Of a stretch of 64,000 bases of DNA, positions 1-63,654 are shown piece by piece. A program made the translations under genes and the position numbers. The notes beneath the pieces were generated by a model. The model was not told where the DNA came from. It saw only the letters and a list, made by a program, of their open reading frames with translations, and searched no databases. The stretch is from Methylobacter sp. (GTDB lineage Bacteria; Pseudomonadota; Gammaproteobacteria; Methylococcales; Methylomonadaceae). The stretch is taken from contig SCPZ01000109.1 of the NCBI GenBank assembly GCA_004299305.1, forward strand, positions 44,918 to 108,917. Direction: 5' to 3'. Within the stretch, counting starts at the first letter, position 1. Each line of letters starts with the position of its first letter.

Positions 1-1
1 T

Positions 2-682
2 CCGCAAGGCTATAAGGAAAATGACGAACCGAAACCCGGCGCTAATTTGGCCAACGGCTATGCGCAGAGTAAATGGGTCGCCGAAAAATTGGTGAGATCG
101 GCCAGGGACAGGGGCTTTCAAGTGACTGTTTATCGACCGGCTACCGTTGCCGGAGACAGCCGTAGCGGTAGTTGGAATACTGAAGACTTTCTGTGCCGGT
201 TGATCAAAGGCTGCATACAGATGGGCTATGCGCCTGTTGAATCGGTCCGCATGGATATGGCGCCCGTCAATTACATGAGCCGGGCTATTGTCTTGCTTTC
301 ATTGCTGCCGAGTTCTATCAGCGCTTGCTTCCATTTAAACCATCCCGCCCCGCCTTATTCCGATCAGCTGATCGATGGCTTTAGCCGGTCGGCTTATAGC
401 CTGGAGCGCATTCCTTATAAAGATTGGGTGAAAAAGGTGCTGGAGACCAATTGTCAGGACTTTGCGTTATTGCCTTTGCTGTCGATGTTTTCGGAGCAGA
501 ACCAGGATGATCAGATGGAGTTATTGGAAGAGGACGCTATCCGCTACGACTGTAGCGAAACGCAAGCGGTCTTGTCGAAGTTAGGCATTGAGTGCGCCTT
601 GTTGGAGGTTGAGTTATTGACACGCTATCAGGCCTATTTTAAGCGTAGCGGCTTTATTCTGGAGCCGGAACATTACCAATAG
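2..682 (+). CDS. C-terminal thioester reductase (R/TD) domain of an NRPS; 5'-partial, gene begins before the window
   Basis: Frame is open from nt 2. NGYAQSKWVAEKLV (YxxxK extended-SDR motif), YRPATVAGDS and DMAPVNY are typical of NRPS terminal reductases. An MbtH gene lies in the same cluster. Confidence 0.85.
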   Translation, partial: PQGYKENDEPKPGANLANGYAQSKWVAEKLVRSARDRGFQVTVYRPATVAGDSRSGSWNTEDFLCRLIKGCIQMGYAPVESVRMDMAPVNYMSRAIVLLSLLPSSISACFHLNHPAPPYSDQLIDGFSRSAYSLERIPYKDWVKKVLETNCQDFALLPLLSMFSEQNQDDQMELLEEDAIRYDCSETQAVLSKLGIECALLEVELLTRYQAYFKRSGFILEPEHYQ

Positions 683-24248: not shown

Positions 24249-24251
24249 TGA

Positions 24252-24451
24252 GGCAACTCGCAAAAAATAAACTACCACACCCTATAATCTTGATAACTCA
24301 GCAGCTAGAAAAATGGAACACGGATGACGCGGATTAAACAGATTATCACTGATAAAACAATTAATTATGTATATTAAAAAATCCGTTCAAATCCGTCTCA
24401 TCCGTGTTCTATTGTATTTAATTTAGGTATTTTTATTTATTGCGAATTGCC
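24252..24451. mobile_element. MITE shell type F2 (GGCAACTCGCAA.AAATA ends) with CACGGAT/ATCCGTG hairpin cargo
   Basis: TGA duplicated at 24249-51 and 24452-54; terminal IRs GGCAACTCGCAAAAAATAAA / TTTATTTATTGCGAATTGCC; sits right after the fecR stop. Confidence 0.85.
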
Positions 24452-24552
24452 TGAGGGTTTTGAGTTATTTAAGGTGGGACGATTTTACAGGTAGCATTCC
24501 TCAAAACGATGTTGCCTGTCTTGCTTAGTTGGTAGCTCGTGTTGTTCAATAA

Positions 24553-24651
24553 GGAATGCGCACGAAATAACTTTGACAACTAGCTCCCTCTCCTGCTGGA
24601 GAGGGCTGGGGTGAGGAGAATAAAATACATAAGTTATTTCAGGCACATTCC
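24553..24651. mobile_element. F1 MITE with CCCTCTCC..GGAGAGGG..GGGGTGAGG REP-like cargo
   Basis: TAA duplicated at 24550-52 and 24652-54; IRs GGAATGCGCACGAAATAACTT / AAGTTATTTCAGGCACATTCC. Confidence 0.85.
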
Positions 24652-24659
24652 TAAATGAC

Positions 24660-24688
24660 TTGTAAAGTGTAAAGCGTAAAGATACACT
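24660..24688 (+). promoter_or_regulatory. Sigma70 promoter of higBA, probably leaderless, with triple (T/C)GTAAAG repeat (putative operator)
   Basis: TTGTAA-17 nt-TACACT, 5 nt before ATG 24694, no RBS; TGTAAAG TGTAAAG CGTAAAG in the spacer. Confidence 0.55.
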
Positions 24689-24693
24689 CGGCT

Positions 24694-24954
24694 ATGATTA
24701 AGAGCTACCGGCATAAAGGTATCCAACAATTTTTTGAAACCGGCTCGAAAGCCGGTATTGCAGCGGAACATGAAGCAAAATTGGCCTTGCTTAATGTGGT
24801 CAAAGGCCCGCTTGAAATGGATGTGGCAGGCTGGAAGTTGCATCAACTAAAAGGTGAACTGGCCGAACATTGGGCGGTAAAAGTAAGCGGCAACTGGCGG
24901 CTCACATTCACGTTTGAAGGCGAAGATGCAATTTTGGTTGATTACCAAGATTAG
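24694..24954 (+). pseudogene. higB: HigB (RelE/ParE killer-protein family) toxin, truncated at its last two codons by a MITE
   Basis: MIKSYRHKG...WKLHQLKG..HWAVKVSGNWRLTF.F...VDYQD. Removing the element restores CAA GAT TAT CAC TGA (QDYH*). Confidence 0.85.
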
Positions 24955-25111
24955 GCGATTTCCTGCGAAAAATATACCCACCTGACTGGTCTTTTTGTCC
25001 GTCTGCTGCGTTGTAAAAATGGTTGCATAGCTCGCTATGCGCCCATTTTTACGCCTTGCAGACGAACAAAAATCCTGCGTCATTTGGGTATATTTATTCT
25101 TGGCAATCGCC
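24954..25111. mobile_element. MITE shell type F4, 158 bp
   Basis: TTA duplicated at 24951-53 and 25112-14; IRs GGCGATTTCCTGCGAAAAATATACCC / GGGTATATTTATTCTTGGCAATCGCC; 5 differences from the inverted copy at 63497-63654. Confidence 0.92.
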
Positions 25112-25133
25112 TTATCACTGACAGGTGTTCGAT

Positions 25134-25429
25134 ATGACTATGTTTAATCCGCCCATCCGGGCAGTATTTTAAAACAAGACGTTTTGCCTGAGCTAGGTAT
25201 CGGCGTAACAGAAGCCGCCGCACAACTTGGCGTATCGCGTGTTGCTTTGTCCCGTGTCATCAATGGCCGGGCGGCTATCAGTGCAGATATGGCGATTCGC
25301 CTTGAAGCCTGGATGAACGGCCCCACCGCCGAAAGCTGGGTGCGTATGCAAGCAGAATACGACCTCTGGCAAGCCAGACAGAAGCCGCGCCCCAACATTA
25401 AACCGGTGGCAATGCCTCATACAGCCTAA
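25134..25429 (+). pseudogene. higA: HigA antitoxin with a 1-nt deletion near codon 7
   Basis: ATG 25134 with RBS reads MTMFNPP then shifts. Adding one base in CCGCCCATCCGGGC gives (P)HPGSILKQDVLPELG..., continuous with the ORF at 25184 (HTH, AISADMAIRL, ESWVRMQAEYDLW). Confidence 0.8.
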
Positions 25430-25578
25430 CCGCGCATCGAGACCTTACGAGCAAATCGTTATTTCCCCACTGTGTTCCACATAGAACCAAATCCCTGAGC
25501 CTCATGCGTAACATTCAGTTAATCAGTATCCTGATGTTTGTCTGCTCCAATGCAAATGACTTTTCGGCTATTTAAGAT

Positions 25579-63496: not shown

Positions 63497-63654
63497 GGCG
63501 ATTGCCAAGAATAAATATACCCAAATGGCGCAGGATTTTTGTTCGTATTCAAGGCGTAAAAATGGGCGCATAGCGAGCTATGCAACCATTTTTACAACGC
63601 AGAAGACGGATAAAAAGACCAGTCAGGTGGGTATATTTTTCGCAGGAAATCGCC
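63497..63654. mobile_element. F4 MITE, inverted relative to 24954-25111
   Basis: TAA duplicated at 63494-96 and 63655-57; 153/158 identical to the higB copy by manual comparison. Confidence 0.92.

What the first reader, a model, noticed from the sequence alone, without database searches (positions are those of the whole stretch)
24694..25429. Toxin-antitoxin pair disarmed: MITE clips the catalytic Tyr-His off HigB, and HigA is frameshifted
The F4 element inserted into GAT|TAT creates a TAG and removes the final YH; the lost TAT CAC TGA is still visible at 25113-25121. Established: the C-terminal Asp-Tyr-His of Proteus vulgaris HigB is needed for mRNase activity. HigB also looks about 4 aa short around AKLALLN, and higA lacks one base near codon 7. 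Inference: a frozen record of TA decay (toxin first, antitoxin next), caused by a 158-bp non-autonomous element. Precise excision would restore the toxin without an antitoxin.
Basis: partly seen in the sequence, partly recalled or inferred. Interest (0 to 1): 0.62.

Follow-up and report, generated by a model that had tools for sequence, protein, structure and literature searches.

The report
Dead HigBA toxin-antitoxin pair with MITE
A toxin-antitoxin gene pair in a Methylobacter genome is a recent wreck: a small hairpin transposon cuts off the toxin's two catalytic end residues, the toxin has also lost four residues, and the antidote gene is frameshifted, which is a tidy but ordinary example of how such modules die.

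Summary
Four intact orthologous cassettes in other Methylobacter genomes define them.

1. A 158-bp MITE (24954-25111) sits in GA|TTA|TCAC with a 3-bp TTA duplication. It creates TAG after Asp86 and strands TAT CAC TGA at 25113-25121.
2. A 12-nt in-frame deletion (24786|24787) removes RQLM from the middle of helix alpha2.
3. higA has lost one C from a CCCC run (25152-25154), so it stops after 12 codons.

The lost Tyr-His align with Tyr91/His92 of Proteus vulgaris HigB, which are needed for toxicity and mRNA cleavage (PMC5027501). All 32 aligned relatives keep them.

The cassette is a lineage-specific insert between fecR and a macA-like gene. Substitutions on its own branch are mostly synonymous, so the decay is recent. 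A paralogous higBA in the same genome has a nonsense-mutated toxin and an intact antitoxin, which fits "toxin first".

Three points stay open:
- Whether the MITE or the deletion came first.
- Whether the frameshift is in the reads.
- Whether excision would revive the toxin. This is doubtful, given the deletion and the lack of a detectable autonomous element.

This is ordinary gene decay, well documented.

The parts
24251..24656 (.). Nest of other repeat elements between fecR and the cassette: a MITE with AGGCAACTCGCAA... ends at 24251-24452, a 15-copy repeat at 24467-24536, and a MITE with GGAATGCGCACGAAATAACTT ends at about 24550-24656.
   Evidence: Repeat families. Copy-number profile against the whole genome.
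24660..24693 (+). Conserved upstream region of the cassette. It is a putative promoter/operator: TTGTAA at 24660-65, a 17-nt spacer holding GTAAAG repeats, and TACACT at 24683-88, only 5 nt before the ATG.
   Evidence: Conserved with four orthologous cassettes. The promoter reading is inference; the consensus scan did not flag it.
24694..24954 (+). higB remnant: 86 codons plus a TAG stop made of the target duplication and the first G of the element.
   Evidence: ORF. PF05015 at 49.3 bits against a cut-off of 27. Aligns end to end with P. vulgaris HigB residues 1-90.
24786..24787 (+). Junction of a 12-nt in-frame deletion. It removes RQLM, residues 32-35 of the orthologues, from the middle of helix alpha2.
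   Evidence: Alignments. Helix 24-39 in the orthologue model against 24-33 in the window model.
24951..24953 (.). Left copy of the 3-bp target-site duplication (TTA).
24954..25111 (.). It folds end to end into a hairpin.
   Evidence: About 40 copies at 92-100% identity. 31 complete copies, and this copy differs from their consensus at 3 positions. Free energy -75.7 kcal/mol, z -11.9. Absent from all four orthologous cassettes.
25112..25114 (.). Right copy of the target-site duplication (TTA).
25113..25121 (+). Stranded last codons of higB: TAT CAC TGA (Tyr-His-stop).
   Evidence: Matches the orthologues' ...GAT TAT CAC TAA.
25134..25172 (+). higA start (Shine-Dalgarno AGGTG at 25123-25127). 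It gives 12 codons, MTMFNPPIRAVF, then TAA.
   Evidence: The orthologues read MTMFNPPHPGSILKED....
25152..25154 (+). C run that is one base short (CCC here, CCCC in 3 of 4 orthologues). This is the higA frameshift.
25154..25429 (+). Out-of-frame body of higA (HPGSILKQDV... to TAA). The first possible start in this frame is TTG 25184, which gives 81 aa and has no Shine-Dalgarno.
   Evidence: ORF. TIGR02607 at 81.2 bits, but only profile positions 16-81. Matches PDB HigA chains.

Best explanation
This is a recently pseudogenised type II HigB-HigA toxin-antitoxin cassette. The lineage acquired it between fecR and a macA-like gene.

The toxin gene carries two lesions. First, a 158-bp non-autonomous hairpin transposon inserted at a TTA target two codons before the stop. 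Its duplication plus first base make a TAG, so the protein ends at the Asp that corresponds to Asp90 of P. vulgaris HigB. It lacks the Tyr-His pair that completes the active site. Second, a 12-nt in-frame deletion removes about one turn of helix alpha2.

Once the toxin was harmless, the antitoxin gene was no longer needed. It then lost one C in the C-rich Pro-Pro-His-Pro codons, leaving a 12-residue peptide.

Shown: the three lesions, their derived state, the homology of the lost residues to catalytic residues, and the transposon nature of the insert. Inferred: loss of toxicity, the toxin-before-antitoxin order, and that the frameshift is biological.
For: - Four intact orthologous cassettes in the genus (HigB 92 aa ending DYH, HigA 98-103 aa) define all three lesions.
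- 72 of 80 closest genomic relatives are 92 aa and end in DYH, and none has the 4-aa gap. Tyr and His are invariant in 32 aligned relatives.
- The window HigB aligns 1-86 to P. vulgaris HigB 1-90 at E 6e-14.
- In that protein, D90A, Y91A, H92A and delta-H92 abolish growth inhibition and slow cleavage 77- to 215-fold (PMC5027501).
- MITE hallmarks are all present: inverted-repeat ends, TAA/TTA duplications in 28 of 31 complete copies, about 40 copies, and empty sites in the orthologues.
- The HigA remnant lacks TIGR02607 profile positions 1-15.
- Branch-specific substitutions are 12 synonymous to 2 non-synonymous in higB and 4 to 4 in higA, so constraint was lost only recently.
- The paralogous pair at G000:C2:786-1055 has TGG-to-TGA at the invariant Trp of HigB and an intact 95-aa HigA, which is a toxin-first intermediate.
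- Assembly quality argues against an indel error. 83% of the genome lies in stop-free frames of at least 150 codons. There are 141 frames of at least 1000 codons despite about 10,400 C4/G4 runs. Contig-end overlaps stop at 119-120 nt, as in a short-read de Bruijn assembly.
Against: - No reads, transcript data or sister-strain sequence could be consulted, so the single-base deletion rests on one draft assembly.
- Loss of toxicity is extrapolated from a homologue with roughly 40% aligned identity (by eye from the alignment; not computed), not measured.
- The AlphaFold models still fold the shortened protein (mean pLDDT 78 against 88 for the orthologue), so the effect of the 4-aa deletion is unknown.
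- The order of the MITE insertion and the deletion cannot be resolved.
Confidence: 0.8

Rival explanations
1. The higA frameshift is an assembly or sequencing error. The locus would then be a dead toxin next to a living HigA, an orphan antitoxin or repressor like the paralogous pair on contig C2.
For: The lesion is a one-base change in a homopolymer (CCCC to CCC), the commonest kind of consensus error. HigA is otherwise almost unchanged in protein sequence: 4 branch-specific replacements, 3 of them in the variable tail. Reads could not be checked.
Against: The genome shows no sign of widespread indel errors: 141 open frames of at least 1000 codons despite about 10,400 C4/G4 runs. The assembly looks like a short-read de Bruijn assembly, where C4 errors are rare. 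The partner gene already carries two independent lesions, so relaxed selection on higA is expected.
Confidence: 0.1
2. The MITE did not disarm anything. It landed in a toxin gene already inactivated by the 12-nt deletion (or by F5Y), or in a cassette that was already entirely dead. It is a passenger in a pseudogene.
For: The deletion removes two positions conserved at 90% or more (Gln33, Leu34) from the middle of helix alpha2. F5 is invariant in relatives and is Tyr only here. This MITE family often sits at or within a few codons of gene ends, so a 3'-end hit needs no special explanation. The copy is among the younger ones, with 3 differences from the consensus.
Against: Nothing in the sequence orders the events. 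A 4-residue deletion keeps a helix nearly in register and may be tolerated. The MITE lesion is the only one whose effect is backed by experiments on a homologue.
Confidence: 0.35
3. The pair is still functional in a reduced form. The truncated HigB would keep ribosome binding or co-repressor activity, and an 81-aa HigA made from TTG 25184 would still bind it or the operator.
For: His50, Lys53, Arg69 and Asp86 (His54, Lys57, Arg73 and Asp90 of P. vulgaris HigB) are retained. H92Q HigB still associates with ribosomes according to PMC5027501. The HTH and dimerisation part of HigA is in one open frame.
Against: TTG 25184 has no Shine-Dalgarno, and the conserved NPPHPG segment (profile positions 1-15) is missing. 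The native ribosome-binding site drives a 12-aa peptide instead. A hairpin of -75.7 kcal/mol now separates the two genes. There is no sign of selection for the new state.
Confidence: 0.04

Closest known systems
HigB-HigA of plasmid Rts1, Proteus vulgaris (PDB 4MCT, 4MCX, 4PX8, 4YPB; PMC5027501)
   Same: Same Pfam family (PF05015) and the same toxin-then-antitoxin gene order. The ancestral length is 92 aa with a C-terminal Asp-Tyr-His. HigA is of the TIGR02607 type. The alignment is end to end at E 6e-14.
   Different: The window copy lacks Tyr-His and four helix alpha2 residues, and its higA is frameshifted. It is a chromosomal cassette in a methanotroph, and aligned identity is only roughly 40% (by eye from the alignment).
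Decayed chromosomal TA modules and orphan antitoxins
   Same: The toxin gene is inactivated and the antitoxin then drifts. A paralogue in the same genome shows the intermediate state.
   Different: Here one lesion is a MITE placed exactly at the catalytic C-terminus, and all stages can be compared with intact congeners.
Bacterial MITEs such as the Correia elements of Neisseria, and IS5/PIF-Harbinger-type 'Tourist-like' elements with 3-bp TWA duplications (recalled from memory, not tested)
   Same: It is short and non-coding, has terminal inverted repeats and folds into a long hairpin. It occurs in many copies, duplicates TAA/TTA, and inserts at gene ends.
   Different: No cognate transposase was found in this draft. 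The only PF01609 element, at C19:16600-17455, has unrelated ends. The family is not described in the searched literature.

Membership tests
HigB toxin (PF05015, RelE/ParE superfamily) | Profile match above the curated threshold | tested here: met
   49.3 bits against a cut-off of 27, profile positions 1-88 of 91.
HigB toxin (PF05015, RelE/ParE superfamily) | End-to-end homology to a structurally and biochemically characterised HigB | tested here: met
   Window 1-86 aligns to P. vulgaris HigB 1-90, E 6e-14.
HigB toxin (PF05015, RelE/ParE superfamily) | Complete active site (His54, Asp90, Tyr91, His92 in P. vulgaris numbering) | tested here: not met
   His50 and Asp86 are present. Tyr and His are cut off by the TAG at 24952-24954. 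Both are invariant in 32 relatives.
HigB toxin (PF05015, RelE/ParE superfamily) | Full-length fold with an intact helix alpha2 | tested here: not met
   The 4-aa deletion lies inside helix 24-39 of the orthologue model. The helix spans 24-33 in the window model, and mean pLDDT is 78 against 88.
HigB toxin (PF05015, RelE/ParE superfamily) | Growth inhibition or ribosome-dependent mRNA cleavage | not testable with these tools
   Needs expression in E. coli and a cleavage assay.
HigA antitoxin (NCBIfam TIGR02607) | Profile match above the curated threshold | tested here: met
   The remnant scores 81.2 bits against 47.7; the orthologue scores 107.4 bits.
HigA antitoxin (NCBIfam TIGR02607) | One open frame from the native start that includes the N-terminal NPPHPG segment | tested here: not met
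   There is a stop after 12 codons, and the remnant covers only profile positions 16-81.
Type II hig operon | Toxin gene upstream, a short spacer, then the antitoxin gene, under one promoter | tested here: met
   The ancestral arrangement is seen in four orthologues and is restored in silico by joining the flanks. The spacer is 12 nt. At present the genes are separated by the 158-bp element plus 3 bp.
MITE | Terminal inverted repeats | tested here: met
   27-nt ends, GGCGATTTCCTGCGAAAAATATACCCA and its near-complement.
MITE | Target-site duplication | tested here: met
   TAA in 16 and TTA in 12 of 31 complete copies; TTA here.
MITE | Small, non-coding and multi-copy | tested here: met
   158 bp with no ORF above 36 aa starting inside it. 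About 40 copies at 92-100% identity, plus size variants of 59-229 bp.
MITE | Empty site in relatives | tested here: met
   Four orthologous cassettes lack the element. G029 and G004 have a single TTA at the site.
MITE | Cognate autonomous element with the same ends | tested here: inconclusive
   None with both ends more than 260 bp apart. The only DDE_Tnp_1 element has different ends. The draft assembly breaks at repeats.

The most novel reading that the evidence does not exclude
HigB-type toxins may have a built-in weak point for this class of transposon. Their invariant catalytic end is encoded as GAT TAT CAY TAA, which offers TTA and TAA targets to elements that duplicate TWA and that are tolerated at gene 3' ends. 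A MITE burst could then be a one-step route by which a genome sheds addiction modules. The insertion kills catalysis, and its hairpin at the same time uncouples the antitoxin gene, an event that would be lethal at any other position. If so, MITE-rich lineages should show an excess of C-terminally clipped HigB genes.
Probability: 0.08. Interest if true: 0.45.

Novelty: new member of a known kind. Interest (0 to 1): 0.22.

Why it matters
The locus is a clean, fully reconstructible example of toxin-antitoxin decay. Three independent lesions can each be dated as recent against intact congeners, and a paralogue in the same genome is caught at the earlier, toxin-only stage. It shows that a two-residue truncation can be the functionally decisive lesion in HigB. 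It also flags an undescribed, highly active MITE family in Methylobacter that lands at gene ends. It does not change what is known about TA biology or MITEs.

Tried and rejected
- Independent assemblies: exact-protein look-ups of the 86-aa HigB and of the neighbouring 381-aa MacA-like protein found nothing on record.
- Sister strains: neither the species-representative genomes nor the metagenome scan gave a copy closer than about 93% protein identity. No empty-site allele of the same lineage could be examined. The nearest congeners are only 87-88% identical in flanking genes.
- Autonomous parent of the MITE: pairing of ends found nothing, and neither did inspection of solo ends. A relaxed 10-nt end search gave only noise. 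The single PF01609 transposase has other ends.
- Known RNA families in the region: only sub-threshold hairpin look-alikes.
- Literature on Methylobacter MITEs: none found.
- Programmed frameshifting or an alternative start for higA was considered and rejected. There is no slippery motif. The body frame is closed by TAA at 25145-25147, and the first start, TTG 25184, has no Shine-Dalgarno.
- Synteny of the cassette with congeners was rejected. Homology is confined to 24652-25430, and fecR and macA are 50-60 bp apart elsewhere.

Full report
**Observation.** The region holds an 86-codon ORF (24694-24954) ending VDYQD-TAG. It matches the HigB family PF05015 at 49.3 bits against a cut-off of 27. 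From 24954 runs a 158-bp element with ends GGCGATTTCCTGCGAAAAATATACCCA and its near-complement. It is flanked by TTA at 24951-24953 and at 25112-25114. TAT CAC TGA follows at 25113-25121. The higA start is ATG 25134, preceded by AGGTG. It reads MTMFNPPIRAVF and then stops. The HigA body (HPGSILKQDV...) continues one frame over and ends at 25429.

**Comparison with intact relatives.** The genus is Methylobacter, judging from the record titles. A protein search of related genomes found orthologous cassettes at 91-93% protein identity in four congeners. Aligning them shows HigB of 92 aa ending DYQDYH and HigA of 98-103 aa starting MTMFNPPHPGSILKED. Against these the window has three derived lesions:
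- A 12-nt in-frame deletion at 24786|24787 that removes RQLM.
- The 158-bp insertion in GA|TTA|TCAC.
- Loss of one C from CCG CCC CAT. Three orthologues have CCCC here; G018 has CCACAT.

No relative in the genome or metagenome scans shares the 4-aa gap. Of the 80 genome loci, 72 encode exactly 92 aa ending DYH. In a 33-sequence alignment the Tyr and His are invariant, Phe5 is Tyr only in the window, and two of the four deleted positions are at least 90% conserved.

**What the lost residues do.** The window protein aligns 1-86 to residues 1-90 of P. vulgaris HigB (4MCT_B, E 6e-14). His50, Lys53, Arg69 and Asp86 therefore correspond to His54, Lys57, Arg73 and Asp90. The missing Tyr-His correspond to Tyr91-His92. 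Schureck et al. 2016 (PMC5027501) report three relevant results:
- H54A, D90A, Y91A and H92A fully restore growth.
- Y91F and H92F also reverse toxicity.
- D90A, Y91A, H92A and delta-H92 slow cleavage 77-, 215-, 184- and 190-fold.

Loss of both residues should thus abolish toxicity. This is inference by homology, not a measurement.

AlphaFold models place the deleted RQLM in the middle of helix alpha2. The helix spans residues 24-39 in the orthologue (mean pLDDT 88.3) and 24-33 in the window protein (78.2). The functional effect of the deletion remains unknown.

**The antitoxin.** The out-of-frame remnant matches TIGR02607 (antidote_HigA) at 81.2 bits, but only over profile positions 16-81. 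An intact orthologue covers positions 1-81 at 107.4 bits. The remnant also matches solved HigA structures. Its frame is closed upstream by TAA at 25145-25147. The first start in that frame is TTG 25184, which has no Shine-Dalgarno. The native ribosome-binding site therefore yields only a 12-residue peptide.

**The insert.** The whole genome holds about 40 copies at 92-100% identity, several of them at contig ends.
- Pairing the ends gives 61-66 elements, depending on the pairing criteria. Size classes run from 59 to 229 bp, and 158 bp is the commonest.
- Of 31 complete copies of about 158 bp, 16 have TAA and 12 have TTA duplications. The higB copy differs from the consensus at 3 positions.
- The element folds end to end into a hairpin of -75.7 kcal/mol, z -11.9. 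Its centre looks like a weak bidirectional terminator.
- Related copies at 83-93% identity occur in several congeners, up to 19 matches in one genome. The expansion is strongest in this genome.
- No autonomous partner was found. The only PF01609 transposase element has unrelated ends.
- Many copies sit exactly at, or within a few codons of, the ends of long open frames. A hit two codons before a stop is therefore typical for the family. It matters here only because HigB's last two residues are catalytic.

**Context and age.** In congeners, fecR and the macA-like gene are 50-60 bp apart (G036, G066, G014; 238 bp in G029). G029 keeps its own higBA about 450 kb away. Window positions 24250-25554 are therefore a lineage-specific insert. 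It consists of three other repeat elements (24251-24656) followed by the cassette.

Substitutions unique to the window branch are 12 synonymous to 2 non-synonymous in higB. In higA they are 4 to 4, and three of the four replacements lie in the variable tail. The cassette was therefore under purifying selection for most of its separate history, and the lesions are recent.

**Order of events.** A live toxin without an antitoxin is harmful, so at least one toxin lesion should predate the higA frameshift. The same genome offers a parallel. It has four HigB-family loci:
- The pairs on C19 and C118 are intact.
- The pair at C2:786-1055 has TGG-to-TGA at the invariant Trp of the NWR motif. The rest stays in frame to EDYH, and its 95-aa HigA is intact.

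Whether the MITE or the 12-nt deletion came first cannot be decided from this sequence.

Three indirect arguments favour a real mutation:
- 83% of the genome lies in stop-free frames of at least 150 codons. There are 141 frames of at least 1000 codons despite about 10,400 C4/G4 runs.
- Contig-end overlaps stop at 119-120 nt, as in a short-read de Bruijn assembly.
- The partner gene is already broken twice.

I put the chance of an artefact at about 10%.

**Verdict.** The claim that the MITE caused the disarming is not established. The claim that excision would revive the toxin is doubtful, because the deletion would remain and no transposase is evident. Earlier notes of this scan list several decayed higBA pairs, including one hit by a MITE. 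This is an ordinary kind of event, although unusually well documented here.

Noticed in passing
G000:C2:786-1055 (locus L044 786-1062, minus strand), outside the window: A second higBA pair in the same genome. HigB has TGG-to-TGA at the invariant Trp of the NWR motif, and the rest stays in frame to EDYH-stop. Its 95-aa HigA is intact. This is a toxin-only stage of decay.
   Followed up: yes
whole genome G000; e.g. C78:10920-11077, C65:5893-6090, C52:79340-79497, C116:41926-42134: The GGCGATTTCC-ended MITE family (61-66 paired elements, 59-229 bp, TAA/TTA duplications) often sits exactly on the stop codon, or within about 5 codons of the end, of long open frames. This suggests TAA/TTA targeting plus tolerance at gene 3' ends.
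   Followed up: partly
window 24251-24656: The fecR to macA spacer is 50-60 bp in congeners. Here it has been filled by three other repeat elements (24251-24452, 24467-24536, about 24550-24656) before the higBA cassette. The last one ends 3 nt upstream of the putative -35 of higB.
   Followed up: partly
window 24660-24696: The conserved TTGTAA, 17-nt spacer and TACACT end only 5 nt before the higB ATG, and there is no Shine-Dalgarno. The orthologues are the same. higB may be translated from a leaderless mRNA.
   Followed up: no
window 25024-25041: The centre of the MITE is a short GC stem with T runs on both strands, so it looks like a terminator in both directions.
   Followed up: no
window 63497-63654 (minus strand): A second copy of the same 158-bp MITE, 96-97% identical, with a TAA duplication.
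   Followed up: partly
G000:C19:16600-17455, outside the window: The only clear PF01609 (IS4/IS5-type) transposase in the draft is an element of about 850 bp with AGTGCGTGTTTTAAAAG-like ends, unrelated to the MITE ends. The mobiliser of the several TTA/TAA-targeting MITE families is unidentified.
   Followed up: partly
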